A stretch of 64,000 bases of DNA from a virus (IMGVR_UViG_3300044711_000026:4999-68998), one strand, 5' to 3'. Counted from the first letter of the stretch, positions 6,657 through 43,558 are shown. Made by a program: numbers and translations. The notes: generated by a model not told the origin, from the sequence alone.

Positions 6657-9600
6657 TTACCTCTGTTCATGACGTTCTCTTTTCGATTCATAAGCGAGAC
6701 GCAATGCTACTTCGTGATGCTTGATCGGCTTGGACGTGTTACCCTCGGCAAGCCACTTCCTGAACTCTGCCATACTTATCCGGCGCGCATGGCCAAGACG
6801 AGCGGCGCCCTTTCCATCGCTGAAACCGGCCCGATAGGTGGCCAGAGCCTCCTTCTCGGAATTGAACCCAATCATGCACTTGTGTTCGTCGAATCGGCCT
6901 GTCTCCGCATCCTTCTGATCGACCACGAACACCTGATCTGATTTGTCGTTCGGACCGACGTAGCAATCGACGTGGTCTCCGTCCGCGCCTTCCGTTCGCT
7001 TGATGTATCCATAATGAGCCGGCATGGTCACAGACCAGCGCTTGCCGTCCTTGCCGATACCTGAGCGCTGCCGGCCCTTCAGGTTCTCCAGCGTGATATC
7101 CAGTCCTTGGAAGAAGCGATGAGTCTTGCTGTAATTTCCAGCCTGTTTTTGTGCCTCGCTCGGATTATGATTGTGGACTGCGCCACCATTGGCAAAATGA
7201 ACTTCCCGGCCAGAATGATCAGAGACATTCCCACCTCTTGCGAAGCCGGCTGGTGTAGATGGCTTTCTGCTCCCAGTCGCTACATCGGATTTTTTGTCTT
7301 CGGGTCTTTGAGCCTGAATCATCTTGAGATCGGGCATGGCGCGATTGGTGGATGCTGGTATGGCTTTCCGCACGATCGCGCTAGGCGTAGAACTCCCACC
7401 AATGAACGGCTTTGGCTTTGGAATGATATCGTCCAGCGAATCACTTAGACGCTTGTTCTGTGCCGCCCCTTCAAGGCGGTTTGCTCCCCATTCCAGCATC
7501 TTGCCAACGCCAAGACCGGCAAGACCGCCGTCACCATGAACATAGCCGAGCGCCCCCATGACTGCGGCGCCATATTTGCGAACAGCGGCCAGTAACGCTG
7601 GCGCTGTGTCTGAATTGGTGCGCGCATACTTTGGAATGATTGTCAGCTTGAGAGCGTCGGCGTAACGCTTCATGAGCGCTCGTTCGCTTTCAGAATAAAG
7701 CTGCTCTGCAACGGTGCGTCCTGCGCCATGGAGAAATTCGTTAATAGCCTGCATAGCCTTTTGAGCCCCAGGTTGATCCTTCCCCGCTGCCGCTTGCGTC
7801 AGCTTTTGCCATACTCCCTGACGAACCGCCGCCATTGTGGGGCTATCTGACCCTACGATGCGCTCAATGGCTCCTATCGCTCGCGCGGTATTACCGGGGT
7901 TCTGCGAACCGATGATCTTGAACACACCGTTGACGACTTCCTCTGGCGTGGCGGTGCCATCAACGATCCTGCGGAAGGTGGCCCCAGCAGCGCCACCGAT
8001 TTCCGCACCCCCAAAGACGTCCTGATAGGCCTGCCGCACTCTCTGTGCAGTCTGTGTGGCCGGAAGTTGCTCAATGTTTCGCTCAAGATCCCGCACGCCT
8101 TGTGCGTGAGATCGCATCGCATTTCGCTCTTGCTGCGTGAACATCCTTTGGGCCAATGTAGATCCAGCAAACTCAGAAATGCTGTTTGCACTCCTCACCG
8201 GATCAACTTCGCCAGCGGCGTTGCGAACCTGAGATGCCTTCTGCCACATGGCCTGACGTATCGTGCTCCAAGCATCAGAATCGGCACCTAGAATTTGCTC
8301 AAGACGATCTGCAATCCTGACCGGAAGGCCCGCCGCTCCAATTTTCCCTGAGCCAACGATCATATTGGCGATTTCTTCCGGGGTGGCGTTGCGGTCAACG
8401 ATCCGGCGCATTGCGGTTCCGACGTCATCGCCGGGGCGCTGAGGGCCGAAAGTGTTGCGATACCGAGAATAGGACGCACGAGCTTCCTGCAGAGCCTGTA
8501 GCGCCCGCGGATCTCCAGAAAACAGGTTCTCGGTGATCGCGCGCTCTATCTGGTCGTCAAACCCGTCCAACACCGCACGGGTTGCCCTAGCGTCGGCTGG
8601 ATTAGCCCTCGCCTGCTGATAGTACCCCACCAGACGCTTCCGCATCTGGTCAATCCCTCTCAATGACACCCCTGTTATTTCTTCCGGATTTGGCTCAGCA
8701 TGTGGAGAGGCAAGATTGGTGATGTGTGGACGGGACATTTCATCCAGCGCGGCGATTGCGCGCATGGCGGTAGGCGTGCCCTCATCGATAATTACAGGGT
8801 TATCGGCGCCGTAGGTCAATTCCTGCCGGATACGGGTTCCCATGCCCCGAACGGCGCTGACATCAAATTCACCCGGGAGCCGTCCAAATTCATCATATAG
8901 GCCGCGAAACTCCTCACGGTTGGCTTGTGCTGCCTCACGCACGTTCTGCCCAACGACCTCGCCAGCCTCGCGAGGATTTTCAATCGGGAGCGCGCCTTGG
9001 CGGATCGACTCGTTGAGTGCTCTACCCTGATCCTGAACCATGCCGCGCTGTGATTCGGCCTCAGCCGCCGCGCGACGCTCTGCCTCGGCCTGTAGTTCAC
9101 GCGCTCGCAAACCTTGTTCCGACACTTCTCCTGCGACGACGGAGCCGGCTTCTGCGGGGTTTTCGATTATAGGAGCCGTACGGGCCGTCTGCTCTCCAAT
9201 ATCCCGGCCAGCGGCTTGCGAATCCTCGTATTGTTTCTGAAAGAAAGCCGCTGCACGGTCCTGCGCTTCTTTGCCGTAGGCTCCACGGGCCGCCATATCC
9301 TCATAGCGAATACGGTCTAGATCCTGTGTTGCCTGCCCGCGTGACAGGTTAATTCCAAACTCACTGGCAACTTGCCGGTTGGCTTCCGTGGCAGCGGGGA
9401 CAGCCTCCCTTGCCGCTCGAATTGGGGCGGCGAATAACCCTCCAGTTCCCTTTGGAGCCGCAGGGGTCAAGAATTGAGCGGCCTGCATGGTTGCGCTAGG
9501 CAGCGCTTCACGTCCCTGCGTTTGCTGAAATTGTTCTTCTTCCGTTTGTGGAGTCGATGTCGCTGCCTTGGCAGCTTCCACCGATGTTTTCATGCCCTGA

Positions 9601-9758
9601 AGGCTCTCCTTAATCATCCAAAGCGGGCCGCCAGGAGTGGCTTTGTCCCACATGTTCGCAAGACGATCCCCGAAGGACTTAGGAGCCGCAGTTTCACCAG
9701 CGGCCCAATCAGGAGCCGGTGCACTATCCGCAGTTGCCCAGTCCGGAGCATCGGTCAC
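6657..9758 (-). CDS. large internal virion/DNA-ejection polyvalent protein with C-terminal InPase (inorganic pyrophosphatase-like) domain
   Basis: 1033 aa, helical Ala/Gln/Arg-rich; C-terminus ITLENLKGRQRSG...WSVTMPAHYGYIKRTEGADGDHVDCYVGP...FDEHKCMIGF; GTG start. Confidence 0.75.
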   Translation of the reverse strand: MTDAPDWATADSAPAPDWAAGETAAPKSFGDRLANMWDKATPGGPLWMIKESLQGMKTSVEAAKAATSTPQTEEEQFQQTQGREALPSATMQAAQFLTPAAPKGTGGLFAAPIRAAREAVPAATEANRQVASEFGINLSRGQATQDLDRIRYEDMAARGAYGKEAQDRAAAFFQKQYEDSQAAGRDIGEQTARTAPIIENPAEAGSVVAGEVSEQGLRARELQAEAERRAAAEAESQRGMVQDQGRALNESIRQGALPIENPREAGEVVGQNVREAAQANREEFRGLYDEFGRLPGEFDVSAVRGMGTRIRQELTYGADNPVIIDEGTPTAMRAIAALDEMSRPHITNLASPHAEPNPEEITGVSLRGIDQMRKRLVGYYQQARANPADARATRAVLDGFDDQIERAITENLFSGDPRALQALQEARASYSRYRNTFGPQRPGDDVGTAMRRIVDRNATPEEIANMIVGSGKIGAAGLPVRIADRLEQILGADSDAWSTIRQAMWQKASQVRNAAGEVDPVRSANSISEFAGSTLAQRMFTQQERNAMRSHAQGVRDLERNIEQLPATQTAQRVRQAYQDVFGGAEIGGAAGATFRRIVDGTATPEEVVNGVFKIIGSQNPGNTARAIGAIERIVGSDSPTMAAVRQGVWQKLTQAAAGKDQPGAQKAMQAINEFLHGAGRTVAEQLYSESERALMKRYADALKLTIIPKYARTNSDTAPALLAAVRKYGAAVMGALGYVHGDGGLAGLGVGKMLEWGANRLEGAAQNKRLSDSLDDIIPKPKPFIGGSSTPSAIVRKAIPASTNRAMPDLKMIQAQRPEDKKSDVATGSRKPSTPAGFARGGNVSDHSGREVHFANGGAVHNHNPSEAQKQAGNYSKTHRFFQGLDITLENLKGRQRSGIGKDGKRWSVTMPAHYGYIKRTEGADGDHVDCYVGPNDKSDQVFVVDQKDAETGRFDEHKCMIGFNSEKEALATYRAGFSDGKGAARLGHARRISMAEFRKWLAEGNTSKPIKHHEVALRLAYESKRERHEQR

Positions 9759-12568
9759 GGCTCAACTCCAAATCTGGCGATGAACTTCTCTTTGACCTCG
9801 GGGTGAGTGCGTGCGTAGTCGATATCTGCCTGTGTCGGCTTGGGCTTTTCGGTCTTCTCCGGACTAACCTCTCCCGGCTGAACCTGGCCGTTTTCAGGGA
9901 TGATCGTCTTGCCTTCCTTGATCGCGTCACGCTCGCGGGTAACCTGCTTCTGCAACTGCATGACGGCTTTCTTGTACGTTCCCTTGGAAAAGGCCGTGTC
10001 CAGATAGTGCAGGGCAAGGTCGCGGTCGCTCTCGCGCATGACGCCCATTGGGTTCATGGCTCGGGCCCAGTGCTCGGCGAGCTGCAGGTTGGCCATACCG
10101 AAGGTCACGAGGTTTGGATCGTTGGTCATGACTTGACCATGCTGAATAATGCGATCAAGCGGGACATACCCCGTTGCACGCTGGACCTTCTCCGATTCCT
10201 CAAGTGCCGCTGGTACTGCCGCCGCCGTTGCCTTCAGGATCATGTTGAGGTTTTCCTCACGGGTCGACCGGGTACGGGCCGCAGCGTTCTTTGAAATGCC
10301 GCTTGCAGAGAATTCCTGTTTCCGTGTCGCCATGTCCTGATCCGACACGTTTTTGTCGTTCATCTCCCTCGTGATGGCGCTTTGCACCAAGGCCTTGTTT
10401 TCCGGGTTGAACCCGAGGCTACGAACCCGTGAATCATCTCCCGTCGCGACTGTGTAGCGCGCGATTGCTGTAGCGTCCTCCGGACTCAGGGTTGCCGTTC
10501 TCGCGCCCTTTGGCTGGATCTTTGCATCTTGCGCCGGAGGTTGCCCGGTAATGGCGTCAATGACCTTGCCTGACCCTTGCTCCATGACAAGGGGGTGGAG
10601 CGAATCACCAACCATGACACTACCGGCAGGCGTATACTTCTCCCGTTCAAGATTGGCTTTTTCTGCGGCGGTCATCTGCGTATACGGCCGCTCGGCCCTA
10701 GCTTCGGCCGCCTTCTGCGCCATCGTCATTTGGCTATACGGCTGCTGGAAGTGTGCTTCCTCCATGGCCATCTTGGCCTGCTCAAGATCGTGCTTCTGCT
10801 GCTGCTCGATCGACTTGGAATAGGCACCCACACCAGCCATGCCAGCCTCACCGAGGCCGCCAAGGAACGACCCCGGACCACCACGGGTCGTCGCCATCAT
10901 GGCAAGTCCAGCCTGCATCAGACCTTGCCGGAGTTCAGGCGTCATCTTGATGCCAAGGGAACTGAGGATGCCTCCCTGCTGCTCGGGTGCTGGGATGTCC
11001 TGCGAACGCCCTACGCCGGCCTTCAGGTTTGGAGCGCCGGCATAGCCCAGCGCCTCGGTATCCTCGCCAGAACCAGCCGGAGGAGCAGCGGAGGCCGTCA
11101 TACGCCTTGACGAAACCCCGGCGGTGACCTCCGGCGGCAATGGCTCGTCAGGCACAGCAGCCATTTGTGGTGCTGGCAATCCAGCATCGCTTGCCGCGGC
11201 ACTGATCTTCTTTCCGTTGTCGCGATCGACACGGCCTCGCCAGTCCTCCATGTCCTCCGGAGGCGTTAGCCGGAACGGGCCGCCGCCATCGTCATAGGTC
11301 GGGCCCGGCTCATAGGCTGGCTTGGATGCTCCTACGCCAGCTGCCATGTTCGGAAAGGCATCGTTAAAACGGTCGGCGAAGTCAGGCATGCCGCCTTCGG
11401 CAAAGCCCCTGATCGTGCCGCCGCTATGATAGCCGGGTCCGTAATCGTCCTTGGTAAGACCCTCAGCAGGGGAGTACGAACTGCCGCCGTAAGCATCCGT
11501 CAGGAAATTCCCACCGCCGTAGCTGGCGCTGTCGAAAAGGCCAACGCCGGCTTTCCCCAAGGTGCCAATGCCCTTCATCTGGTCCTGCGACAGTCCGGCC
11601 TGCTTCGGGGCTTGCGGAGCGGACGGCATAGTGGCGTGCAGTGCGTTGGCGTGCGGCTCCATGACCGGAACCCACGTCTGGGAATTGCCGTAGGGACTGC
11701 CGCCGGCCGCAAAGCCTGCCCGCTTCTCTGTGACCGCGCCGCCATCCTTGATAAACATCGAAGCTGCGGTGAGCCCGAGCCCAGCCGCTTGCGTCCATGG
11801 ATTCGGCGTCGGCCCCTGCGTCGTGGCCTGCCCCGTTGTGGTCGATCCCATAGATCCACCCACCGCGGTATCGATCCCGGCCAGCCACTGCGCCACCTGG
11901 AACGGGTAGCCTTGGGCCTGATAGTAGTCCTGACGCTTCTGGGTGTCCTGAGCCTGCTGGGTCTGCTGCTGAAGCGTACCGGCTCCGACCTGTGCCTGAG
12001 CGCCCTGCATCGCAGCCTGCTGGGCTGAAACTCCAGCCCGCATGCGCTGCTGCTGCTGGTTCTCCGCAGTGTTGACGGCCTGCTGATAACCTTGGCTTCG
12101 CAGTCCAGCAATCACAGGGGCCTGTACCCGCGCCTGACCCTCGGCGGTCAAAGCCTGGGCGACTCCAACACGGTCGCCGCCGAGCGCCCCTTGTGCTGCG
12201 GCATTTCCGGTTACGGTCGAGTTGGCCCGCTGGTTCTGAACGTCAAAATCCGCCTGCGTGGCGTTGATGACCTGACTGGTGTAGGGGTCCTGATAGCGCT
12301 GGATATCGGCCGCGCTGATAGGGTTTCCGGAGGCGTCGATCTGACCGATAAACTGCGAATTTGGCCCCGCAATCTGGTTGATGTTGCCGATACCAGCCTG
12401 CTGCTGTTCATTGATCGGAGCGGTTTCCTCGCCCTGATATCCTTGATACGGGGTCGACGCCACGCCAGAGGCACGGTTGAGCAACGCCAGATACGCCTGA
12501 TAGGCGTTGGAATCCGGAGAGGTAGAGCCGGACTGCTGTGTGGTCGTGGTGTTGCTTCCTTTACCCAA
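9755..12568 (-). CDS. internal virion/DNA-ejection (pilot-type) protein
   Basis: GGAGG SD then TTG giving MGKGSNTTTT; Gln/Ala-rich N-terminal half, amphipathic Gly-rich helices; follows the GNAT gene. Confidence 0.75.
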   Translation of the reverse strand: MGKGSNTTTTQQSGSTSPDSNAYQAYLALLNRASGVASTPYQGYQGEETAPINEQQQAGIGNINQIAGPNSQFIGQIDASGNPISAADIQRYQDPYTSQVINATQADFDVQNQRANSTVTGNAAAQGALGGDRVGVAQALTAEGQARVQAPVIAGLRSQGYQQAVNTAENQQQQRMRAGVSAQQAAMQGAQAQVGAGTLQQQTQQAQDTQKRQDYYQAQGYPFQVAQWLAGIDTAVGGSMGSTTTGQATTQGPTPNPWTQAAGLGLTAASMFIKDGGAVTEKRAGFAAGGSPYGNSQTWVPVMEPHANALHATMPSAPQAPKQAGLSQDQMKGIGTLGKAGVGLFDSASYGGGNFLTDAYGGSSYSPAEGLTKDDYGPGYHSGGTIRGFAEGGMPDFADRFNDAFPNMAAGVGASKPAYEPGPTYDDGGGPFRLTPPEDMEDWRGRVDRDNGKKISAAASDAGLPAPQMAAVPDEPLPPEVTAGVSSRRMTASAAPPAGSGEDTEALGYAGAPNLKAGVGRSQDIPAPEQQGGILSSLGIKMTPELRQGLMQAGLAMMATTRGGPGSFLGGLGEAGMAGVGAYSKSIEQQQKHDLEQAKMAMEEAHFQQPYSQMTMAQKAAEARAERPYTQMTAAEKANLEREKYTPAGSVMVGDSLHPLVMEQGSGKVIDAITGQPPAQDAKIQPKGARTATLSPEDATAIARYTVATGDDSRVRSLGFNPENKALVQSAITREMNDKNVSDQDMATRKQEFSASGISKNAAARTRSTREENLNMILKATAAAVPAALEESEKVQRATGYVPLDRIIQHGQVMTNDPNLVTFGMANLQLAEHWARAMNPMGVMRESDRDLALHYLDTAFSKGTYKKAVMQLQKQVTRERDAIKEGKTIIPENGQVQPGEVSPEKTEKPKPTQADIDYARTHPEVKEKFIARFGVEP

Positions 12569-12569
12569 G

Positions 12570-13124
12570 TTATCCTCCAACAGACTTCAGGTGACGTGGC
12601 TCTCGCCCCGATTTGCCACGCCTCGGAAACGGCTCGCGCCAGAAATCCTCGTTTGGTTCCTCGTTCTGCCATTTAGAGTTAAAAACAAACCAAGCTCCGG
12701 CCGGGACACCAAGCGACCGTCGATAAAGCCTGACTTTTCCCTCCATCCGGTAGTTGGTCAGCACTCCGATCGTGAGTGGGATGCCGATCTCCATGGAACA
12801 CGTCTTGGCGAAGTTGATCAACTGAGTGGCATAGTTCTGAGGAGCTTTTCGCACATCCGGGCGGACGAAGTTGAATAATTCTTCAAGGTGATTGGCGCGC
12901 GAATACCACATGCGACTTATCAGGAGGTAAATCATCGCCCTAATGTCGCCCGGTTCCCCAATTACCCCAAGGATGCCGCCCTGACGGTTGAACGCAAGGT
13001 GAAAGGTCTTCTTGGCCTCGATCTCGTCCAGAGGCATCACACCACCTTCGGCATGCATAACCGTCAAGAGTTGCATGATTTCGTCTTCATCGGCGATCGA
13101 GGCAATTCGGACTTTCTCAGTCAT
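12570..13124 (-). CDS. GNAT-fold acetyltransferase (T7 gp13-like position)
   Basis: RMWYSRANHLEELFNFVRPDVRK; located before the ejection proteins. Confidence 0.75.
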   Translation of the reverse strand: MTEKVRIASIADEDEIMQLLTVMHAEGGVMPLDEIEAKKTFHLAFNRQGGILGVIGEPGDIRAMIYLLISRMWYSRANHLEELFNFVRPDVRKAPQNYATQLINFAKTCSMEIGIPLTIGVLTNYRMEGKVRLYRRSLGVPAGAWFVFNSKWQNEEPNEDFWREPFPRRGKSGREPRHLKSVGG

Positions 13125-13126: not shown

Positions 13127-15031
13127 TTAGTCCTGTGCTGGAGGCGACAACTTCTGAAGCGTCTTAACATGATTACGGCGATTTTGGACAATCCAGTTAT
13201 CCAACAATCGGTGGCCCAAGCTCACATCACCGCCGCCAATAATCCGTACTTCTTCGGGGGAAAGGACATGCTCGCCGCCCGCCGTGATGACAGGGACGGG
13301 ATGGCCGGTCTCCTGTTCGTCACTGGCCACGCCGCCAATCGCTCGTTTCAAGCGATGCTTGCGGGCGATCTCGCTGGCACCGTGCACAGACATGACCATT
13401 TTTCGGATGCCGTGTGGACCAAGTTGCTTGAGATTCTTCATGCCGGCTAGCGTGTTGTTCTCGCCAAGGTGTGACACCGTTTCCGAAGGAATGACGTATG
13501 AACCCGCCGCGACGTCCATGGGATGCTTGTCAGTGCGCCCGGGCACGTCGGAGATGATAGGTCCCTCAAACACGCCGCCGCCGTCTGCACGGGCTTGGCG
13601 CTTAGCCTCGTAGGCGATATTGAGGGCCTTGTTCACTGGTCCACCTTTTGCTCTGTTCTTTTTGTTGGAGCCCACCCAATGGGGTGCGGGCACCACTTCG
13701 ATCTGCCGGCCCGGCGTCAAATCCGGATTGACGTGCAACGGAATGCGCCCCGCCTGCAAGGTGTCCGGGTTATTGCGCAGATACGGCGCATCGCGCGCTT
13801 CTGACTCGCCGTGCAGATGCAGATACCTTGCATAAGATTCGTCTTTGGCTTTTTGAAGCTGCTGCGCGTACTGATGAATTTGCTTGAGCTGATCCAATAG
13901 CCCCTTGTCTTTCATCGTATTGAACATCGAAAGCTGCTCGGCATTCATCGCTTCAGGCCGCATCGTTGCTACCATGCGTGCACTGAAAGGATTCCATCCG
14001 GTTTCCTGCTGCACCTTTGCATCAAACGATTTTTTCGCTTCTTCTAAATGAGGCTCCGCGCGTTTGATATTTTCCGGAACAAACTGCTCGTGCCCCCCAC
14101 CCCAGCCGAAACCCTCCCGATGTTGAATTGCGTGAACCGCCTCGTGATGCAATACGTCCTGCAACTGTGCTGGCGTAGAAACTGCTCGTACATGTATGCT
14201 TTTATTGACGGGATCGTAGAAGCCTCCCGCGTTGCTTTCCTTCACTGGTACGTCTTTCAGCCACGGATACGCATCGTATAATCTCGGATGATCCCAGAGA
14301 TCGCCCAATCTTACTGCGTCGTATTTCTGCGGCCCTTCACGCCATGACATGGAAGGCATCCCAACCATGCCATCCGGGAGCTGTTGCACCTTATCTGTGA
14401 GTTTCGCATCTTTATCTTGCAACCAGTATCTCGGTTTTTCATCCCCTCCCCGATACCAACCGGTCACGGAGTAGTTCATTTCCGGAGAGGTACCTTTGTT
14501 TTCAAGGCGTTCGAACTGTGCCAGTTTTTTAAGATGTGAACCTTTCGATGAAATGCCAATTCCCGTGCGCAAGGCGTTAGCTTCAACCGGCGCAAGGCCC
14601 GCACCACCAACCATGGTCAATGCAGTTTCGAGAGTTGGGGCGATTGCCTCATCCGGCATCTCACCGCTTCCCGGTCGGTATTGGCCCGCTCCCTCAATCG
14701 CCCGCTTTGGAAGTGTTGCGAGGCCCTCCAAAACGTGCCCGGGGTATTTTAGAACGGCGCCAAGCACTTTTTGTGGATCACCAGCCGTGGCTCTCTGGAG
14801 GGACTCTCTAACAGATCGTGGGTCAAAAGTGCCCTGCTGAACATCAGCTTCAGGCGCTGTGTCGATCACTGGGGCCTCATCCACCTCAGTCAAGCCACCG
14901 CCCTCTGCCCGCTTACGCCGCTTCACCGCATACGCGATTGCAAGGGCCACTTTTTGCGGTTTTCCAGCATGGATTTCCGCCTTCAGATTCCTGACAAAAG
15001 CGCCTTTGCTGGATGACTTCTCAAGCGGCAT
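13127..15031 (-). CDS. polyvalent virion protein: basic N-peptide + LPD23-like + HExxH metallopeptidase (MPTase-like) + C-terminal GP..D..P..GxYV domain
   Basis: N-terminus MPLEKSSSKGAFVRNLKAEIHAGKPQKVALAIAY; TGWYRGGDEKPRY; LWDHPRLYDAYPWL; VLHHEAVHAIQHREGFGWGG; GESEARD; GPIISDVPGRTDKHP...GSYVIP. Confidence 0.7.
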   Translation of the reverse strand: MPLEKSSSKGAFVRNLKAEIHAGKPQKVALAIAYAVKRRKRAEGGGLTEVDEAPVIDTAPEADVQQGTFDPRSVRESLQRATAGDPQKVLGAVLKYPGHVLEGLATLPKRAIEGAGQYRPGSGEMPDEAIAPTLETALTMVGGAGLAPVEANALRTGIGISSKGSHLKKLAQFERLENKGTSPEMNYSVTGWYRGGDEKPRYWLQDKDAKLTDKVQQLPDGMVGMPSMSWREGPQKYDAVRLGDLWDHPRLYDAYPWLKDVPVKESNAGGFYDPVNKSIHVRAVSTPAQLQDVLHHEAVHAIQHREGFGWGGGHEQFVPENIKRAEPHLEEAKKSFDAKVQQETGWNPFSARMVATMRPEAMNAEQLSMFNTMKDKGLLDQLKQIHQYAQQLQKAKDESYARYLHLHGESEARDAPYLRNNPDTLQAGRIPLHVNPDLTPGRQIEVVPAPHWVGSNKKNRAKGGPVNKALNIAYEAKRQARADGGGVFEGPIISDVPGRTDKHPMDVAAGSYVIPSETVSHLGENNTLAGMKNLKQLGPHGIRKMVMSVHGASEIARKHRLKRAIGGVASDEQETGHPVPVITAGGEHVLSPEEVRIIGGGDVSLGHRLLDNWIVQNRRNHVKTLQKLSPPAQD

Positions 15032-15084: not shown

Positions 15085-15486
15085 TTAGAAGAACTCGATT
15101 ACTGTAAACGGCTGGGCCGTGCCCGTTCCTGCAAACCCCGAAAATCCGCAATTGATGTTTGGATACTGAGCGGATGGGAAGGGCACGGTGCTACCACCGG
15201 CCACCATGAGCGAACCGCCCAGCGTCGACGTGGTCGGAGAGGTCGCCATCCCGGTCTGAAACACGTAGCAAGTCGCGGTACCGGGATTATGAAAGACGAT
15301 GCCGTGACGGATCGAGCTGGTGCTGACCAGAACCGTGATGGAGGCGGTTCCCAGCGTTACCGCGGTGAACTTCGGAGAGGTTGTGGTAGTCGCGGCGGGT
15401 GTCGCGTTGGAAACAGCCTGATTCCACGCCGCGAGCTGCACGGCGATGTTCTGGAGCTGGCTGATTACCTCGTCTGCGCCGGCCAT
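15085..15486 (-). CDS. Thr-rich virion structural protein
   Basis: 133 aa, TGATG-coupled to the tail hub gene. Confidence 0.65.
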   Translation of the reverse strand: MAGADEVISQLQNIAVQLAAWNQAVSNATPAATTTTSPKFTAVTLGTASITVLVSTSSIRHGIVFHNPGTATCYVFQTGMATSPTTSTLGGSLMVAGGSTVPFPSAQYPNINCGFSGFAGTGTAQPFTVIEFF

Positions 15487-17525
15487 CAGTTTCTCCCGCT
15501 CGGAGCGTAGCGATATCGCACCTTGCCTATACGCCAGAAGCTGCCTTGGTCGCTTGAGGTAACCGTGATCGACATCTGACGGCCACGGAACCGTACCGAG
15601 ATGAACTCCGTTGTCGACGTGACCACATAGGGACCGTAGCCTGTCGGGGTGTCACCGGGATAGTTGACCACGTTGAACGTCATCTGGATCTGGGCCGAAC
15701 CGGAGGCTCCATACAGCGAAAATTTGAAATCCGGTATGATGACATCGACGAACGCAAAATCCTCGCCTTCTCCAATGACAAAGTAGCCCGTCGTGAATGA
15801 TGCCGTGATCGGCTGCCCGTCCGCGTCGTTCGTGGTCTCCTGCTGGTAAATGATGCCGCTTGGCGTGGCCGCGATCGGAGGTCCCAGGATGGTCTGGTCC
15901 ATCCATGCCGAGCGCGACAACGTCCCGTAGTCCCACGGCTTGGTAGGTTCAGTGACGTTCATCTTGACGTAGGAATCGCACTCCCCACTGACCGAAGCTG
16001 ATGACGGGAATAACCAGCCCACCTCGTTATAGGGCGTGTTTGGCATGGCCCTGACGTTCTGCAGGAACGACGTATTGCTGTTCTGGAACACGAAGTCCCA
16101 TACCGTGCAGGGTATGACGCTGACCCCGTTCGAATCGTAGGCATAGAAGTTGCTCGCTCCCATCCAGTAGACTGAGCCCCTGAACTGCTGCGCGCCATGT
16201 GATGAGATCAAGCCCGCCCCGGCTCCGATCTTGTTGAAGCCGAACACCAGCGGAAAGCCTTTGTAGGTTGCGGCCCACAAGTCGAGATCGGTCCAGAACA
16301 GGTTCTGGTTTGACACCGCCATGCCACCGCGGATTTCAGATCCGATCGGAATGCGGAATGAGCCAGCCTGATTGGTCGTCGAGGTCTTGAACTGGGTATA
16401 GTCCCCCTGATCGGACCAGCGCACCAGCATTGGGTCCTGAGACTGTCCAATGTTGGCGTTCGTGGTCGATCCCCATGCGAACAGGATTTGCAGGGAATTG
16501 GAGATGAAGATGCCGCCATTGAACGGCGGTGCAGTCGGCACGATGGATGCCGTGTTGAACCCGCCAGTCGGATCGAACTGATAGATTGCCCCCCCAGACG
16601 GATTGGCGAGCGCGATCTCTCCCCAATTATCGCTGGTCCAATCGGTTGCGGTAATGGGGGTGCCCGTCTGGAACGATCCCGCAACGCCGGTCCCATATCC
16701 TCCGGCCCCATAGCCGCCCGTTCCATATCCTGCCCCGCTCGCCGAAGGACCAAGGTTGATGAAATACTGAAAGCTGGTGCTTCCATTGTTCATGAACCCC
16801 GTAGCCAGGCCAGTCGCCAGGGAATTGACGTTGATCGTGAAGTTGTTCGCATCGACAAAGATCGCCGGATAGATGCCGAAAATCGTCACCCCTGACAGTG
16901 ACGTTGTGGCCTGAAACGCCACGTTGATGAATCCGGCGCTTGAAAGGCCGTGTGCTGTAAAATTGACGCTGACGATATTGGACGTCGTCGCGGTCTGGAA
17001 CAGAGGAAGCGATCCGGCATTGTTGACCGTGGCACCAGCCGCTGTTGCAATATTGATCTTGTAGGACGTTCCTCCCAATGTCGTGACTGTGTAAAGACCG
17101 GATATCACCGCCGTCCCGATCGAAACCGGCGTATTGATCATCACGGAATCGAACGAACTCAGGTTGCTGATGTTCGGATCGGTGATCGTGACCGTGGTCG
17201 AATTTGCGATCGTGGAAAAATTCGGAGGGGTGCTGGAGTCTACCTCTTGGGGCGTGATCGAGATCAAAGACCCCGACGTGATCATGTCGAGGCTTCCGGT
17301 CGTTCCCGACAGGAGATGATGGTTACCGTTCAAGTCCTGCCATGCATGGAGATCGCGCGGCGTGCCGGCCACATTGAAGGCGTAGAATTTGGACCATCCG
17401 CCATACTTCTGGACGAGGCCTTCGCGAAAGCGAATCAACTGGCTCGACGAAATGCCAGCCTCATTCAACGTTGGTGTTTTTTCAACGTTAATCCCGGGAA
17501 TGAGTCTGACGCTTCCATGTGGCAT
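15486..17525 (-). CDS. tail hub/nozzle protein (tail tubular B, P22 gp10-like)
   Basis: 679 aa; PGIN..., IRFREGLVQKYGGW, VRWSDQGDY...TNQAGS, VFGFNKIGAGAGLIS, RFRGRQMSI. Confidence 0.8.
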   Translation of the reverse strand: MPHGSVRLIPGINVEKTPTLNEAGISSSQLIRFREGLVQKYGGWSKFYAFNVAGTPRDLHAWQDLNGNHHLLSGTTGSLDMITSGSLISITPQEVDSSTPPNFSTIANSTTVTITDPNISNLSSFDSVMINTPVSIGTAVISGLYTVTTLGGTSYKINIATAAGATVNNAGSLPLFQTATTSNIVSVNFTAHGLSSAGFINVAFQATTSLSGVTIFGIYPAIFVDANNFTINVNSLATGLATGFMNNGSTSFQYFINLGPSASGAGYGTGGYGAGGYGTGVAGSFQTGTPITATDWTSDNWGEIALANPSGGAIYQFDPTGGFNTASIVPTAPPFNGGIFISNSLQILFAWGSTTNANIGQSQDPMLVRWSDQGDYTQFKTSTTNQAGSFRIPIGSEIRGGMAVSNQNLFWTDLDLWAATYKGFPLVFGFNKIGAGAGLISSHGAQQFRGSVYWMGASNFYAYDSNGVSVIPCTVWDFVFQNSNTSFLQNVRAMPNTPYNEVGWLFPSSASVSGECDSYVKMNVTEPTKPWDYGTLSRSAWMDQTILGPPIAATPSGIIYQQETTNDADGQPITASFTTGYFVIGEGEDFAFVDVIIPDFKFSLYGASGSAQIQMTFNVVNYPGDTPTGYGPYVVTSTTEFISVRFRGRQMSITVTSSDQGSFWRIGKVRYRYAPSGRN

Positions 17526-23115: not shown

Positions 23116-23361
23116 CTATGTCCTGCGCGGCTTGTCTGCCCTCTGGCTTACGCAGCCGCCCTCCATCTTCATTTCGATGCCTGGAAACTTCCGGTGCACC
23201 TTGGCTTTGACCTTGGCTTTGAGCGCTGGAGATCCGTGCTGAGAAACCCGCGCCAGCGCATTTCTGGCGTGGCTCTTATCTTCAATTGGGTAGCTGCGGT
23301 CAGGTCCGGCAAAATCCTTTGTCGGGATTTTCTTCCGGGCCTTGGCCGTCAGCTTGGTCAT
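23116..23361 (-). CDS. small basic head-associated protein
   Basis: KARKKIPTKDFAGPDRSYPIEDKSHARNALARVSQ; contains KMEGGCV. Confidence 0.7.
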   Translation of the reverse strand: MTKLTAKARKKIPTKDFAGPDRSYPIEDKSHARNALARVSQHGSPALKAKVKAKVHRKFPGIEMKMEGGCVSQRADKPRRT

Positions 23362-23705
23362 TTCGGAGTGCCGCCATACGTGTCGGCGGGACTAGACGAC
23401 CCGGCGCAGCTCGCCGAGTTATGAGCGGTCGATAGCGGAGACCGATTGGCACCAACCGCACCACCCGACTTGCGGCCTGGCCGATCCAGACGCGCCTTCA
23501 CGCCGCCACCGGCCATCAGGCCGATGACCTTGCCGCCGGTCGCACGCTTCTTCTTGACCTTACCGCCCTTCTTGTGGCCGGTCTCCGCGCCATCTTCGTC
23601 GTCATCGGCCTCGCGCAGCACTTCCGGATTCCCGGAAGCCACCATACCGATCCGGCCGCCCTTCTTGCGCTCGGTCTTAACTTGCATACCGCCGTGCTTA
23701 GCCAT
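23358..23705 (-). CDS. small basic KKGG-repeat protein
   Basis: AGGAGG SD; KHGG, KKGG x2, RATGG, RKSGG motifs. Confidence 0.75.
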   Translation of the reverse strand: MAKHGGMQVKTERKKGGRIGMVASGNPEVLREADDDEDGAETGHKKGGKVKKKRATGGKVIGLMAGGGVKARLDRPGRKSGGAVGANRSPLSTAHNSASCAGSSSPADTYGGTPK

Positions 23706-26166: not shown

Positions 26167-27081
26167 TCAAGCAGTAGGGAACTCGCCCCATGCCGCTCTT
26201 GGATCGTTTATACCAAAGCTATACCTTTCATAACTTTTGACCAAAAGATTATCGGTCACATTATCAACCCACATATCGCTCTCATACGGAATGCGCAGCA
26301 TGTGGATGAGCCCCTCGATGTTCGTGGTGAGGAACCACGCGAAATTCGAGGTGAGGAAGTCGAGAACGATGAAGCCCTCGGGGAGGCCGCCGGAGAGCGA
26401 CAGGATGGCGTTGACGTCGTTGTCCGCGGTGCCGGGGCGCAGCTCGGTCTTGGTGAGGCGGATCGCGACCGCTTCAAGGTTGGCCGGCACGACGAGCTTG
26501 CGTGCGCGGGCCAAGATCCTCATGCCGCGTTCGTTGACGAACTGGGCGCGAACGTTGGTCATGTTCGCGAGCAGCGTCGATTCATTCAGAGACTTCGGCG
26601 TGCTGGACGTGTTGGCCCATGTTCCACCGTCATAGGGATGTGAGGTGGAGAAGAATGCGACGCCGTCGCCGACCTGGCTCGAGTTGTAGGTCGTGCCGAG
26701 ATTGAAGATGTTGGCGGCCTGAATTTCCTTGAATTGCGCGAACGCTTCCTGGAGCTTCAGGTTGGTCGGGTTGAACTGGGCCTTGTACAGGTTGTCGTCG
26801 ATTGCCTTGCGCGTGATCGCGTAGCCAAGAGCCACTTCCACATGGATAAATGCCCAAGTGAAGCGCTCGCCAGCGTTGTTGTCGAACTGGGTTGCCGCGC
26901 CCTCGTCCTTGAGGTATGGCAGCGCCACGAACGCCATCTGAGTAGAGCGCTCGACCGCCATTGAGGACTTGTGGGTCTTGAAGACCTTGTCCCACTGACG
27001 GGGTATCATGTCGTAGCTGCCGCGGACATCGAAGAGGCCCGGAAGCAATTCCGACCGAACGTTTGCAAGTGAAATCGGCAC
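26167..27081 (-). CDS. major capsid protein
   Basis: 304 aa, AGGAGG SD + GTG; ELLPGL, EVALGYAITRKAIDDNLY, LVVPANLE, SYERYSFG..DPRAAWG. Confidence 0.9.
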   Translation of the reverse strand: MPISLANVRSELLPGLFDVRGSYDMIPRQWDKVFKTHKSSMAVERSTQMAFVALPYLKDEGAATQFDNNAGERFTWAFIHVEVALGYAITRKAIDDNLYKAQFNPTNLKLQEAFAQFKEIQAANIFNLGTTYNSSQVGDGVAFFSTSHPYDGGTWANTSSTPKSLNESTLLANMTNVRAQFVNERGMRILARARKLVVPANLEAVAIRLTKTELRPGTADNDVNAILSLSGGLPEGFIVLDFLTSNFAWFLTTNIEGLIHMLRIPYESDMWVDNVTDNLLVKSYERYSFGINDPRAAWGEFPTA

Positions 27082-38966: not shown

Positions 38967-38976
38967 AGTCCGTCTC

Positions 38977-39540: not shown

Positions 39541-39541
39541 G

Positions 39542-40519
39542 TTACCCTTCCGTGAAGCTTCGGTCATAAGCGCCTTGCTGCTGCAGCTTCAGCTTGCGCC
39601 GCGCGAACTCCTGCAGGCCGATCGGATCGCCCTTCTTGAACTTCCCGCTTGGATCTGAGTAGTTCCAAATGTGGGTGCCGTCCTGAGCGGCAGCGGCCTC
39701 CCGTGCAGTCAGCGAAACAGTCGGGGATGAGCCACCACCATTGGTCGACACAGCCGCGCCAGGAGCCACGGGAGGCGCTGGCGAGCGCTTCTGCTGCTGC
39801 GTAGTGACCTGCGCCGCTTCGGTCGGATCGGCCGCCTTCTTGCCGATTCCGAGGTATTCCTCGACCCGCGCGAAATATTCCGGCGTATCTGGGATGAGGT
39901 CTTCAGCCTGTGCCACGGCATCGGCCGCGGTCAGCTTCTTCAGGCCCTTTTCGCTCCGGACATATTCGGGATGGGCTCGCACCCAAGCTGCCGTAGGTGG
40001 CGTGCGATTCGCCGCGAAGATTTCGACCGGATCGGTTGACTTTACTTCTTCGGTTTCTCTCTTCGGGGCCTTGGCTCGCGCCTCCATGTCGGACTTGGCT
40101 TCGTCGAGCCGCATTTCCGTGGAGCGCGCTTTGGCGAGGCGGTCTTGCGCTTCGACTTCCGCATCAATATCGCCCGCCGCCTTGGCTACTCGTATGTCAC
40201 GCTTGGCGCGCTCGGCGTCTTCCTGCGCAGCGCTCAGGGCCGTTGTAATGGTGTCAAGATGGCTGGACGTGGCGCGCTTGTTCGCTGACTCAGCCTCGCG
40301 CTTGTGACGTGCGGCTTCTCGTTCTGCCTCGATTCGGCGCCGCTCCTGCTCGGCCGCGCGTGTCTCCAGGTCCTTGTACTGCGCCATCAGGTCTTGGACG
40401 GCGGGGTCAGCCTTGACCTCGATCTTGGGCGCTTCAGTCTTTACGACTTCTGCCGCACCCTCAACGTTGGCGACCTCGTCAGGGATGATGTTGATGGAGA
40501 TTTCGTCGTCAATCGTCAT
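39542..40519 (-). CDS. capsid scaffolding protein
   Basis: acidic N-terminus, long coiled coil, AWVRAHPEY, PPVAP, short C-terminal helix. Confidence 0.75.
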   Translation of the reverse strand: MTIDDEISINIIPDEVANVEGAAEVVKTEAPKIEVKADPAVQDLMAQYKDLETRAAEQERRRIEAEREAARHKREAESANKRATSSHLDTITTALSAAQEDAERAKRDIRVAKAAGDIDAEVEAQDRLAKARSTEMRLDEAKSDMEARAKAPKRETEEVKSTDPVEIFAANRTPPTAAWVRAHPEYVRSEKGLKKLTAADAVAQAEDLIPDTPEYFARVEEYLGIGKKAADPTEAAQVTTQQQKRSPAPPVAPGAAVSTNGGGSSPTVSLTAREAAAAQDGTHIWNYSDPSGKFKKGDPIGLQEFARRKLKLQQQGAYDRSFTEG

Positions 40520-40522
40520 ATT

Positions 40523-40741: not shown

Positions 40742-40757
40742 TATCGGTCCCTTTTCA

Positions 40758-41354: not shown

Positions 41355-41622
41355 GTGCCGCCTCAGCCTGTACGATGGCAACCGTCTTGGACGCGGCGCG
41401 CATTTCCAGAACCTTGACCCGAGCCCGGTTGATCCGGCTTTTGACCGTGCCAATTTTGACGCCCATAAGGTCCGCGATTGTGCCGTAGGCTAGGCCATCC
41501 AGGGTCGCAAGTTCCAACATCTCGCGGGCATCGCTCGAAAGCTTCTGCAAATGCTCCTCATCGGTGGAGAAGAGTGTAAAGTCTTGAGCGGGATGATTGT
41601 TGATGTGCCGTCTATTCAGCAT
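41347..41622 (-). CDS. stand-alone ECF sigma-factor region 4 (HTH) protein
   Basis: REMLELATLDGLAYGTIADLMGVKIGTVKSRINRAR; no region 2. Confidence 0.8.
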   Translation of the reverse strand: MLNRRHINNHPAQDFTLFSTDEEHLQKLSSDAREMLELATLDGLAYGTIADLMGVKIGTVKSRINRARVKVLEMRAASKTVAIVQAEAAHG

Positions 41623-41974
41623 TGGCTATCACCGGCTTGTCTGAAATGAGAAGGCGCATGTAGTAGCCGTATTTCTCTCTTCTCGGCATGAATGCAATCT
41701 CAGGAACAACGCGCCAGTAAAGCGTCCCCTTGCGTCCTTCGGCGTATCTGTCGAAGTCATCTTGCGCTTGCTCGCGGGCACCAGATGCAGTTCGGTATTC
41801 ACCGATACGACATAACTCCGTATATTTCTGATTTGTCACGGAAAGAGGTCCATTCGTTGACTCGCCTACCTTGCGCTTTGCTTCGCAATACGCTTGCAAA
41901 ATCGCAGCCTGTTGAGAGCATTCCGCGGTGAATTGAACGTTTTCCGGTCCGACCAATCTGACCTTCGCCATCAC
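41612..41974 (-). CDS. hypothetical protein, paralogue of 40758..41096
   Basis: TLYWRVVPEI...KYGYYMRLLISD. Confidence 0.65.
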   Translation of the reverse strand: MMAKVRLVGPENVQFTAECSQQAAILQAYCEAKRKVGESTNGPLSVTNQKYTELCRIGEYRTASGAREQAQDDFDRYAEGRKGTLYWRVVPEIAFMPRREKYGYYMRLLISDKPVIANAE

Positions 41975-41978
41975 ACCC

Positions 41979-42425
41979 TCAATAAATCAGAGAGGGGTCT
42001 TTGACCCGACCGCGCACGAAGGTGTCCTCGATCAGCCGGCAGGACAGGCCCTCGTTCATCTTGCGTCGATCGCGGATGTAAAGCTCGTAGCCATCGCTGG
42101 GACGGTAAACGACCCAATCCCCTGGCTTGACGGTAATACCGCCGAATTTGGCCACGCCATCGTCCTGAAACGCGATGGGGCCAGTCTTCAGGACCAGACC
42201 GATCTTCCCTTGGAAGCGGTTTTCTTCCTGGGCCCGGTCGGTCTCATGAAACACGATGTCCTCGCCATTCGGGCCCTTCATGACCTTCAGCGGCGGTACA
42301 TAGGTGGCGATCAAAATAAGATTGTGGAAAACTTCGTAGTCTCCCAAATCTCCCGCCGCATCCCACAGGGGTTTGGCCGGGTCGTGCGCAGCCGCTTCAG
42401 CGAGCTGTCTCAAGTTCAACTTCAT
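41979..42425 (-). CDS. GroES-like co-chaperonin
   Basis: GKIGLVLKTGPIAF, VKPGDWVVY, CRLIED..V.G.V.DP. Confidence 0.75.
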   Translation of the reverse strand: MKLNLRQLAEAAAHDPAKPLWDAAGDLGDYEVFHNLILIATYVPPLKVMKGPNGEDIVFHETDRAQEENRFQGKIGLVLKTGPIAFQDDGVAKFGGITVKPGDWVVYRPSDGYELYIRDRRKMNEGLSCRLIEDTFVRGRVKDPSLIY

Positions 42426-42435
42426 TCATCGTCCT

Positions 42436-42630
42436 TCAGGCCCGCTCGGCCTTTTCGATATCGTCGCAGACGTGCAACGCCTCATCGATTCCTTCCAAGA
42501 CGCCAACGCGGCGCTTGTAGTCTGGCCAATCTTGCGCGACGACCAGTTCGCTTAATCGATCCGCCCTGATTTGTTCCAACTTAGTGCGGATCGTCCTGAG
42601 TGTCAGCGGGGCATCTAGTGCAAAGACATG
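42436..42630 (-). CDS. small helical protein between the portal region and GroES (start uncertain)
   Basis: LEQIRADRLSELVVAQDWPDYKRRVGVLEGIDEAL; no canonical start near the expected position. Confidence 0.5.
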   Translation of the reverse strand, partial: HVFALDAPLTLRTIRTKLEQIRADRLSELVVAQDWPDYKRRVGVLEGIDEALHVCDDIEKAERA

Positions 42631-42640
42631 GAAACCCCGA

Positions 42641-43558
42641 TCAGCGCTCAACCGCCGGCTCCCATGGTTCGTGTCCAGCCTTGTTCTGCATATGAGCCTT
42701 GGCTTTCCGAGCCTTACCACCGCCGGAACCGGATGGCAACTTCGGTGCCATCTGGTGGCCCTTCTTGCCATCGGAGTAGATCGGACCGCCCGCAGCTCGC
42801 GTGATGACCGGACCACGTCCGATGTTTTGCGTATCGCTCTTGTTGCCAGAATGCTGGATTGGAGTCCGGTCGCCAATGCCGGTAACGCCCTTCTTGTCGG
42901 CCAGTGACTTCTTCCCGACCGCGCCGCCATCCTTGTACGCTCTGCCGCCCTCCGAACGAGGCGGCATTGGCATTCCACCCGGAGGAGGTCCACCGATCCC
43001 AGCCATCGGTGGCGCTCCAGCGCCCGGAGGAGGAGGCATCATGGGCGGCTTTGGCAGCATGGGAGGAGGCCCGGCCATCGGAGGTGCACCACCAGGCATC
43101 GGCGGATGCTGTCCACCGCTCGGCGCCACGATGACGTTGACACTGGTCTTGCCGCTGCCCTTGGACTTGACGTGGCCGCCGCGAGCCCTTCCCATCCTTT
43201 CCTCAATGGTCTTGATAGCGTCTTGTGCATCCTGATCAGACGGCCGTGGCCTTGAACGATTAGTTGCCACGATCTGCTCAGGAGTTGGCAACTTCCCGGG
43301 AGCAGCACCACCGCCAGCCTTTTTGGCTCCCTTGGCGCGCCTCATGGCTTTATCACCTCGGTGCTTGGCTCCCTTCCCTTCGCCCTTGAGCGCGCTGCCC
43401 TTGACCTCCTTCTTGATCAAGGCGCGGTCCTCGGCTTCATCGGAATGGACTGAGCCGCCACGGGCGTAGCACTTCGGAGATTCACTGACGCCGGCAATGC
43501 GGCTGACGCGATCGCGCTCGACCTTGTGTCCGCGATGTTCGTTCATCGGATGTGCCAT
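42641..43558 (-). CDS. basic low-complexity head-associated protein with six GG motifs
   Basis: MAHPMNEH start (TAATG overlap); YARGG, KAGGG, RARGG, RSEGG, YKDGG, RAAGG; Pro/Met/Gly tract. Confidence 0.7.
   Translation of the reverse strand: MAHPMNEHRGHKVERDRVSRIAGVSESPKCYARGGSVHSDEAEDRALIKKEVKGSALKGEGKGAKHRGDKAMRRAKGAKKAGGGAAPGKLPTPEQIVATNRSRPRPSDQDAQDAIKTIEERMGRARGGHVKSKGSGKTSVNVIVAPSGGQHPPMPGGAPPMAGPPPMLPKPPMMPPPPGAGAPPMAGIGGPPPGGMPMPPRSEGGRAYKDGGAVGKKSLADKKGVTGIGDRTPIQHSGNKSDTQNIGRGPVITRAAGGPIYSDGKKGHQMAPKLPSGSGGGKARKAKAHMQNKAGHEPWEPAVER

What the first reader, a model, noticed from the sequence alone, without database searches (positions are those of the whole stretch)
6657..43558. About 20 copies of a [RKFY]-[AKHS]-x-G-G-x-[VI] peptide shared by six head-associated/ejected proteins: candidate packaging or di-glycine processing signal
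Seen: RAEGG, RAKGGPV, RADGGGV, RAIGG (13127..15031); FARGGNV, FANGGAV (6657..9758); IKDGGAV, FAAGG, YHSGGTI, FAEGG (9755..12568); YARGGSV, RARGGHV, RSEGG, YKDGGAV, RAAGGPI, KAGGG (42641..43558); KKGGRI, KKGGKV, RATGGKV, RKSGGAV, KHGG (23358..23705); KMEGGCV (23116..23361). Roughly two thirds have V/I two residues after GG. I did not notice the motif in portal, capsid or tail proteins, and the GNAT protein ends in ...KSVGG-stop. The motifs sit at domain boundaries. Established: GG is the cleavage signature of ubiquitin/SUMO isopeptidases and bacteriocin leaders, and other phages use short peptides to target or cleave internal proteins (T4 capsid-targeting sequence). Inference: a capsid-loading tag or polyprotein cleavage site for internal cargo.
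Basis: partly seen in the sequence, partly recalled or inferred. Interest (0 to 1): 0.85.

Follow-up and report, generated by a model that had tools for sequence, protein, structure and literature searches.

The report
Gly-Gly joint motif in phage cargo
The proteins that this phage carries inside its head and injects into its host share a short, strongly conserved peptide ([R/F/Y]-A-x-G-G-x-V) at the flexible joints between their modules; I found no published description of it, and it is probably a docking-and-hinge signal for loading cargo, though cutting at these sites is not excluded.

Summary
All 22 listed peptides exist. Twelve fit the full pattern, against 0.6 expected from shuffled proteins, and all twelve lie in 5 of 91 proteins: three ejection/polyvalent proteins, a disordered 305-aa protein just after the portal gene, and a 115-aa basic protein.

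The motif recurs in independent data:
- 198 observed against 8 expected in 150 diverse InPase-bearing phage proteins.
- The invariant columns of the portal-adjacent family (at least 287 members) and of the carrier family (at least 582 viral contigs) include its Gly-Gly pairs; the 115-aa family (at least 244 members) keeps about four copies.

It belongs to the junction, not to any one domain. It sits in the low-confidence stretches of AlphaFold models, often just after a helix, often in tandem, and on both sides of inserted cargo modules.

Function is unproven. I favour an uncleaved docking/hinge motif (about 0.4) over a cleavage site (about 0.25). My reasons:
- No head protease was found.
- Pro follows Gly-Gly at 5-13% of sites.
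- Both flanks are conserved.
- Two proteins are little more than motif arrays.

The GNAT's C-terminal GG is not conserved and should be dropped. Earlier notes of this scan report similar AxGG or glycine junctions in other phages; I found no paper describing the motif.

The parts
6657..9758 (-). Protein A, 1033 aa: ejection-protein core with a C-terminal InPase cargo domain (aa 868-1003). A tandem junction motif lies just upstream: FARGGNV (7224-7244) and FANGGAV (7176-7196).
   Evidence: Pfam PF18823 at 2.8e-51. Motif coordinates. The same junction lies upstream of InPase in most of 150 diverse homologues. In P0171 the InPase sits at the other end of the same core, and the junction there reads KRAAGGRVGYADGGAL.
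9755..12580 (-). Protein B, 941 aa: DNA-ejection protein. Four motif copies lie in its linker region: IKDGGAV 11732-11752, FAAGGSP 11693-11713, YHSGGTI 11411-11431, FAEGGMP 11384-11404.
   Evidence: phrog_4287 'DNA ejection protein', aa 8-275. Motif positions. In the counterpart protein of MW202675 an extra segment follows the shared N-terminal region and is followed by motif copies.
13127..15031 (-). Protein C, 634 aa: a roughly 195-aa 'carrier' made of an N-terminal DUF6496-like helical hairpin and a C-terminal domain. A 415-aa LPD23 + HExxH zincin cargo is inserted at the first motif. Motif copies: RAEGGGL 14891-14911, RAKGGPV 13634-13654, RADGGGV 13571-13591, RAIGGVA 13325-13345.
   Evidence: Pfam LPD23 and DUF6782; phrog_2423 on aa 1-43. 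Minimal 171-230-aa homologues lack the insert. The helix plus motif is duplicated on both sides of the insert. In the AlphaFold model of a minimal carrier, both motifs lie in the only low-confidence stretches.
42641..43558 (-). Protein D, 305 aa: basic, proline-rich and largely disordered, encoded just downstream of the portal gene. Motif copies: YARGGSV 43448-43468, RARGGHV 43169-43189, RSEGGRA 42938-42958, YKDGGAV 42917-42937, RAAGGPI 42779-42799. There is also a loose KKAGGGA at 43304-43324.
   Evidence: At least 287 homologues. The Gly-Gly pairs of four motifs are among the 15 invariant columns, and copy number ranges from 3 to 10. The gene always follows the portal gene in related contigs. 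AlphaFold mean pLDDT 59, pTM 0.19.
23358..23705 (-). Protein E, 109-115 aa: a small basic protein between a 418-aa Ala/Thr-rich structural protein and the head-tail adaptor genes. Motif copies: RKKGGRI 23649-23669, HKKGGKV 23556-23576, RATGGKV 23526-23546, RKSGGAV 23454-23474.
   Evidence: At least 244 homologues. The family consensus keeps four copies, with a mean of 4.2 core motifs per member.
23116..23361 (-). Protein F, 81 aa (DUF6582-like). It has one loose copy, KMEGGCV, at 23149-23169, and its membership in the system is doubtful.
   Evidence: It fits neither the full pattern nor its first half. Weak Pfam DUF6582 hit and phrog_16160.

Best explanation
The peptide [R/F/Y/K]-A-x-G-G-x-[V/I] is a selected short linear motif that forms the joint between modules of proteins carried inside the phage head and ejected with the DNA.

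Anatomy, shown here: the R/F/Y-A part often ends an amphipathic helix, Gly-Gly is a flexible hinge, and the V/I begins the next module.

Proposed function, inferred: the chain is not cut at these sites. The joints keep modules independently foldable, so the string can be packed and later threaded through the portal-tail channel. The conserved flanks act as a multivalent docking handle. That handle holds cargo in the assembling procapsid, either on a repeated internal surface (scaffold, coat or portal) or through proteins D and E. D and E are little more than motif arrays and would then serve as adaptors or filler.

New cargo cassettes (InPase, LPD23-zincin and others) enter and leave carrier proteins at these joints.
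For: - Enrichment and specificity: 12 observed against 0.6 expected, confined to internal proteins of the window. The result replicates in 150 InPase proteins (198 against 8.2) and in 45 related loci.
- Selection acts on the protein. Synonymous codons differ between copies. The invariant columns of families D and carrier include the GG pairs, although overall identity falls to about 35-45%.
- The motif belongs to the junction. It is present upstream of InPase when InPase is internal or C-terminal, absent when InPase starts the protein, and present on the other side when the domain order is swapped. It lies on both sides of the LPD23-zincin insert. Homology-block ends fall within 10 residues of a motif 53% of the time against 5% expected, and 13% against 5.5% outside the InPase zone.
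- The sites are flexible. They are the low-pLDDT stretches in the models.
- Evidence against cutting and for docking: no head protease was found, and a separate coiled-coil scaffold protein is present. Pro follows GG at 5-13% of sites. Both flanks are conserved. 40 of 180 neighbouring pairs lie 20 residues or less apart. D and E are conserved, multivalent and disordered.
- The helix module that precedes the motif in carriers is the N-terminus of the AP22 prohead protease/scaffold protein, and a free small ORF beside head genes in other phages.
- Precedent: crAss001 cargo protein gp45 is described as one continuous, partly disordered chain docked by short segments to portal and tail barrel. Its A-[F/Y]-G-G, FAEGG and FAYGG sites bracket those segments.
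Against: - No receptor has been identified, and no structure shows the motif bound to anything.
- In crAss001 the comparable sites are unresolved, so they are not seen docked.
- One motif at nearly every module joint is also exactly what a polyprotein processing code would look like. Gly-Gly-X is a proven cleavage signal in ASFV and, from my own knowledge, in adenovirus.
- Not every protein of the genome was scanned for proteases, and a host protease cannot be excluded.
- The motif could owe part of its spread to shared descent of exchanged linkers rather than to binding.
Confidence: 0.4

Rival explanations
1. Processing code. The motif is where a protease, either an unrecognised phage enzyme or a host enzyme, cuts the internal proteins into separate modules. 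This would happen inside the head or after ejection, as adenovirus and ASFV cut their core proteins at Gly-Gly-X. D and E would then yield short basic peptides.
For: - A motif sits at almost every module joint and is absent in front of N-terminal domains.
- A small stand-alone InPase has a 26-residue leader ending in RARGG. Helix plus motif plus cargo mirrors the T4 arrangement of targeting sequence plus cut site (my own knowledge).
- ASFV polyproteins are cut after Gly-Gly-X by pS273R.
- Iyer et al. 2017 predict autoproteolytic processing of polyvalent proteins by their metallopeptidase domains, and protein C carries such a domain.
- A review states that P22 gp20 may need cleavage by a host enzyme.
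Against: - No prohead, clan-CE, C39 or other candidate protease appeared in the proteins scanned, and there is no homologue of the AP22 protease domain.
- The zincin insert is absent from most relatives that keep the motif, and motif density is not higher in proteins with HExxH.
- Pro follows GG at 5-13% of sites, including an invariant site in D.
- The position four residues before a cut after GG is Ala, not the hydrophobic residue of adenain sites (my own knowledge).
- Tandem sites 8-12 residues apart, and copies close to a protein's C-terminus, would release only trivial fragments.
Confidence: 0.25
2. A plain structural linker with no binding partner: a helix stop, a Gly-Gly hinge and a strand start. 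It would be kept because modules are exchanged by recombination within linkers, and because the string must stay flexible to be packed and threaded.
For: - The motif follows helices and lies in low-pLDDT stretches.
- In the carrier, the V/I is followed directly by structured residues.
- crAss001 gp45 is thought to thread through the portal as an extended chain.
- Cassette swaps occur at the motif.
Against: - A hinge alone does not explain why Ala at position -2 (76-91%), R/F/Y at -3 and V/I at +3 are conserved inside fully disordered proteins D and E across hundreds of homologues.
- It does not explain the restriction to internal virion proteins.
- DNA-level identity between copies is too low and too short for homologous recombination to maintain the motif.
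Confidence: 0.15
3. A motif that acts after ejection by binding a host component. One example would be mimicry of the GroES mobile loop, whose E. coli sequence K-S-A-G-G-I-V fits the reader's pattern. Another would be use of a periplasmic or envelope factor.
For: - From my own knowledge, the E. coli GroES mobile loop reads ...TKSAGGIVL..., which fits the pattern.
- The lineage encodes its own GroES-like protein beside D.
- The motif-bearing proteins are the ones that enter the host.
Against: - The motif has one conserved hydrophobic residue, not the hydrophobic triplet that GroEL binds, and position +2 is mostly R, A, S or K.
- Flanks are acidic in some proteins and basic in others.
Confidence: 0.08

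Closest known systems
Phage-type polyvalent proteins (Iyer, Burroughs, Anand, de Souza, Aravind 2017, PMC5512222)
   Same: Multi-domain effectors carried in the virion, with InPase, LPD23 and zincin-like peptidase domains. Domains are shuffled between phages, and the proteins are predicted to be packaged and injected.
   Different: The paper's text contains no occurrence of 'glycine' or 'linker' and describes no junction peptide. Here the carriers are ejection-protein cores and a small DUF6496-type carrier, not MuF or portal fusions.
T4 capsid targeting sequence with gp21 cleavage (L/I-x-E) of internal proteins (my own knowledge)
   Same: A short N-terminal helical address, followed by a short conserved motif and then the cargo, shared by several unrelated internal proteins.
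   Different: The motif here is mostly internal, repeated and often in tandem. Its sequence is different, and no gp21-like protease was found.
Gly-Gly-X processing of core polyproteins in ASFV (pS273R) and adenovirus (adenain)
   Same: A Gly-Gly core in proteins of the virion interior, including small basic proteins (for ASFV; adenovirus from my own knowledge).
   Different: No clan-CE protease was found. Ala, not Met/Leu/Ile, sits two residues before GG. V/I two residues after GG is conserved. Pro can follow GG.
crAss001 cargo protein C1 (gp45), Bayfield et al. 2023 (PMC10172136)
   Same: A largely disordered cargo chain docked by short segments to portal and tail barrel, with Gly-Gly sites flanked by Ala and an aromatic residue bracketing the resolved segments.
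   Different: The register differs: mostly A-[F/Y]-G-G there, against [F/Y/R]-A-x-G-G-x-V here. The paper does not discuss the motif.
Encapsulin cargo-loading peptides (my own knowledge)
   Same: A short glycine-containing peptide on a flexible linker that binds the inner face of an HK97-fold shell and loads unrelated cargo.
   Different: Those peptides are terminal, usually single, and have a different consensus (G-S-L type). Binding to the shell is not shown here.

Membership tests
Polyvalent proteins (Iyer et al. 2017) | Several unrelated effector domains in one polypeptide, including family-specific domains (InPase, LPD, MPTase) | tested here: met
   Protein A has InPase PF18823 at 2.8e-51. 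Protein C has LPD23 PF18838 at 1e-9 and DUF6782 with an HEAVH signature.
Polyvalent proteins (Iyer et al. 2017) | Encoded among virion genes and predicted to be packaged and injected | tested here: met
   The genes lie directly downstream of the P22 gp10-like gene in an ejection-protein operon. Actual packaging is not testable here.
T4-type capsid targeting sequence with prohead-protease cleavage | A single N-terminal targeting peptide removed by a prohead protease at L/I-x-E | tested here: not met
   The motif is internal and repeated and has a different sequence.
T4-type capsid targeting sequence with prohead-protease cleavage | A prohead protease gene in the head module | tested here: inconclusive
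   Pfam, PHROG and NCBIfam scans of about 40 late proteins gave no protease hit, and there is no homologue of the AP22 gp28 protease domain. Not all small ORFs were scanned, and remote folds were not tested.
Gly-Gly-X processing by clan-CE cysteine proteases (adenain, ASFV pS273R) | A Gly-Gly-X site, with a hydrophobic residue two positions before GG in adenain sites | tested here: not met
   GG is present, but the residue two positions before it is Ala in 76-91% of sites and Lys, Ser, Gln or His in the rest. Pro follows GG in 5-13% of sites.
Gly-Gly-X processing by clan-CE cysteine proteases (adenain, ASFV pS273R) | A virus-encoded clan-CE protease | tested here: inconclusive
   None was seen in the proteins scanned. 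The 219-aa protein at 4090-4749, which the first-stage reader called papain-like, has no Pfam hit and only phrog_1128.
Actual proteolytic cleavage at the motif (any protease) | Mature virion proteins begin or end at the site | not testable with these tools
   This needs virion mass spectrometry. No cultured close relative was found in the phage collection.
Double-glycine leader peptides (C39 peptidase / ABC exporter) | An N-terminal leader ending in GG, with a C39-ABC transporter nearby | tested here: not met
   The sites are internal and repeated. The Pfam scans of the neighbouring late proteins returned no C39 peptidase or ABC-transporter hit.
GroES mobile loop (GroEL-binding) | Gly-Gly followed by a hydrophobic tripeptide (I-V-L type) | tested here: not met
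   Only position +3 is hydrophobic. Position +2 is mostly R, A, S or K, and +4 is polar.
Encapsulin-type cargo-loading peptide | A terminal peptide that binds the inner surface of an HK97-fold shell | not testable with these tools
   The structure tool takes single chains only, so complex prediction was not possible. The motif is mostly internal.

The most novel reading that the evidence does not exclude
Tailed phages of this lineage, and by extension other phages with glycine-jointed cargo, mature their head contents by a Gly-Gly processing code like that of adenovirus and ASFV. An unrecognised phage or host protease would cut cargo polyproteins at [R/F/Y]-A-x-G-G. It would also dice the motif-array proteins D and E into short basic peptides that stay with the DNA.
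Probability: 0.2. Interest if true: 0.85.

Novelty: new variant of a known kind. Interest (0 to 1): 0.6.

Why it matters
How tailed phages select and load proteins into the head, other than in T4 and a few giant phages, is largely unknown, and so is how long multi-domain cargo is arranged for ejection.

A short, widespread and easily recognised joint motif would give three things:
- A sequence marker for finding virion cargo and its module boundaries in metagenomes.
- A concrete handle for experiments on packaging or processing.
- A possible tag for loading foreign proteins into phage heads.

If the sites are cut instead, this would extend Gly-Gly-X core maturation from eukaryotic large DNA viruses to tailed phages.

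Tried and rejected
- GNAT ending in GG as a mature-end signature: rejected. Only 2 of 35 homologues end that way.
- Selection at the DNA level, or a recombination signal: rejected. Codons differ between copies.
- Motif as an integral part of the InPase fold: rejected. It is absent when InPase is N-terminal, in PB1-like portal-InPase fusions (E217 gp19), and in a class of giant proteins.
- Zincin of protein C as the general processing enzyme: rejected. Most relatives lack the insert, and motif density is not higher with HExxH.
- Enrichment at protein termini: none found.
- General DNA-binding motif: unlikely, because many junctions have acidic flanks.
- Fold of the carrier: Foldseek against PDB, and VIA-align against 48,161 chains, gave only weak matches, Z below 5 on the helical hairpin alone. 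Sequence searches of PDB gave nothing.
- Annotation of D and E: NCBIfam and the ESM Atlas gave no name for D or E.
- Control phage phiM5, a more distant relative: no enrichment.
- Literature: searches for a prior description found none.
I took gene neighbourhoods from the search for related loci instead.


Full report
**Setting.** The window is bases 4999-68998 of a single 68,998-bp phage contig. Late genes run on the minus strand in this order:
- terminase large subunit, 49113-50867
- portal, 44465-46750
- protein D, 42641-43558
- a GroES-like protein, 41979-42425
- a coiled-coil scaffold protein, 39542-40519
- a sugar operon
- a Mu gpT-like capsid protein, 26167-27081
- adaptor and tail genes
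- a P22 gp10-like protein, 15486-17525
- an ejection operon: C (13127-15031), GNAT (12570-13124), B (9755-12580), A (6657-9758)

The nearest annotated relative is an uncultured phage, MW202675 (39% identity in gp10).

**The observation.** Twelve fit the full pattern, 18 fit its first half, and 15 have V/I at the last position. In a 91-gene set called by codon statistics, the full pattern occurs 12 times against 0.62 expected from within-protein shuffles. All twelve lie in A, B, C, D and E.

Because the pattern was drawn from these data, I tested it on independent material:
- In the 150 best cluster representatives that share only the InPase domain with A, it occurs 198 times against 8.2 expected.
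- In 45 related viral loci fetched through the carrier protein, it occurs 26 against 0.6 in carriers and 43 against 3.1 in downstream ejection ORFs. In upstream tail ORFs it occurs 13 against 4.4.
- A more distant phage, phiM5, shows nothing.

The consensus is [R/F/Y/K]-A-x-G-G-x-[V/I]. Copies use different synonymous codons, so selection acts on the peptide.

**Where the motif sits.**

*Protein A.* Two copies lie 7-29 residues before the InPase domain. Across diverse proteins the same joint, often doubled, precedes InPase whenever InPase is internal or C-terminal. It is missing when InPase begins the protein. In P0171 the InPase sits at the N-terminal end of the same ejection core, and the joint between them reads KRAAGGRVGYADGGAL. 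The motif therefore belongs to the joint, not to either neighbouring domain.

*Protein C.* C is a small carrier found in at least 582 viral contigs. The carrier has an N-terminal DUF6496-like helical hairpin, a motif, a first half-domain, a second motif and a second half-domain. In the window, a 415-residue LPD23-plus-zincin cargo has been inserted at the first motif, and the helix plus motif is repeated on both sides of it.

*MW202675.* In its 739-aa post-portal protein, motif copies occur at intervals along the chain, around the M15-peptidase-like segment and again close to the C-terminus.

*Quantitative and structural support.* Ends of homology blocks fall within 10 residues of a motif 53% of the time against 5% expected, and 13% against 5.5% outside the InPase zone. 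In the AlphaFold model of a minimal carrier (mean pLDDT 85), residues 47-51 at the first motif are the only stretch below 50. The block 131-140, which holds the second motif, averages 58. Each lies just after a helix.

**Motif arrays.** D has at least 287 homologues. Among its 15 invariant columns are the Gly-Gly pairs of four motifs, copy number varies from 3 to 10, and the gene always follows the portal gene. It is predicted to be disordered (pLDDT 59, pTM 0.19). E has at least 244 homologues with about four copies each. Both proteins are basic.

**Cleavage or docking.** I found no prohead protease and no other candidate protease. The phage has a separate scaffold protein, and the AP22 protease domain has no counterpart in this genome. 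The zincin in C is an insert that most relatives lack, and motif density is not higher in proteins with HExxH.

Further points against cutting:
- Pro follows GG at 5-13% of sites, and invariably in the last motif of D.
- Both flanks are conserved.
- 40 of 180 neighbouring pairs are 20 residues or less apart, with peaks at 8-9 and 12.
- Cutting at every site would reduce D and E to short peptides.

On the other side, one motif per joint is what a processing code looks like, and Gly-Gly-X is a proven viral cleavage signal.

A new lead favours loading. The N-terminal helical module of the carrier is 57% identical to the N-terminus of the prohead protease/scaffold protein gp28 of Acinetobacter phage AP22. 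It also occurs as a free 43-58-residue ORF in other phages; in BCSR129 that ORF lies between a minor-capsid gene and a protease/scaffold-like gene. This suggests it is an address for the head interior.

In crAss001, cargo protein gp45 is described as a continuous chain with short docked segments. Its Ala/aromatic-Gly-Gly sites bracket those segments. The sites themselves are unresolved in the map.

**Verdict.** The motif is real, widespread and under selection, and I could find no published description of it. Earlier notes of this scan report AxGG or glycine joints in other phages, so this is a recurring theme and not a one-off. I rank the readings as follows:
- an uncleaved docking/hinge motif, about 0.4
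- a cleavage code, about 0.25
- a plain linker, about 0.15
- a host-directed motif, under 0.1

No experiment bears on any of these yet.

Noticed in passing
window 12570-13124 (-); loci L027-L106: A GNAT-like acetyltransferase of 157-218 aa follows the carrier gene directly in 35 distinct related loci, giving a conserved set of carrier, GNAT and two large ejection proteins. Its role in the ejection operon is unknown.
   Followed up: partly
window 14900-15031 (-), aa 1-43 of protein C; L107:4501-5826; L108:3501-3632; L109:4001-4177: The N-terminal DUF6496-like helical module (MPL.K..S......N.......G.P..QA.AIA) also forms the N-terminus of the prohead protease/scaffold protein gp28 of Acinetobacter phage AP22. 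It is a free 43-58-aa ORF in Prochlorococcus phage P-HS2 and, beside head genes, in Burkholderia phage BCSR129. It may be a head-interior address.
   Followed up: partly
window 13130-13669 (-); model of P0277: The C-terminal part of the carrier is an internal duplication of a hairpin-plus-helix unit (G-S-Y-V-x-P... and A-G-G-E-x-V-x-x-P...). It is modelled confidently, gave no convincing PDB match, and has invariant R, D, E, H and Y residues of unknown role.
   Followed up: partly
window 41979-42425 (-): A GroES-like 148-aa protein lies next to D, and its homologues stay close to D in most related contigs that extend far enough. The MW202675 counterpart is annotated as a co-chaperonin. The phage may depend on host GroEL for head assembly.
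   Followed up: no
L001:9188-12745: The MW202675 counterpart of ejection protein B carries a segment resembling the self-cleaving intramolecular-chaperone (S74-type) domain of tail spikes (SDRRLKHDI...). It follows the shared N-terminal region and is followed by motif copies.
   Followed up: no
L110:11988-14516 (crAss001 gp45): Cargo protein gp45 has four A-[F/Y]-G-G sites plus FAEGG and KAKGGKV. They bracket the two segments resolved by cryo-EM (residues 214-245 and 425-552).
   Followed up: partly
window 11732-11749 and 42917-42934: The DNA encoding KDGGAV in protein B and in protein D is identical over 18 bases (AAGGATGGCGGCGCGGTC). This may be chance or a small exchange.
   Followed up: no
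homologues of window 23358-23705 (P0394-P0424): Many homologues of protein E start with histidine-rich tails (MAKHHSKHHEKHH...), which the window's copy lacks.
   Followed up: no
window 4090-4749 (-): The 219-aa protein that the first-stage reader called a permuted papain-fold enzyme has no Pfam hit. It matches only phrog_1128, annotated as enoyl-CoA hydratase-like, so its nature is open.
   Followed up: partly
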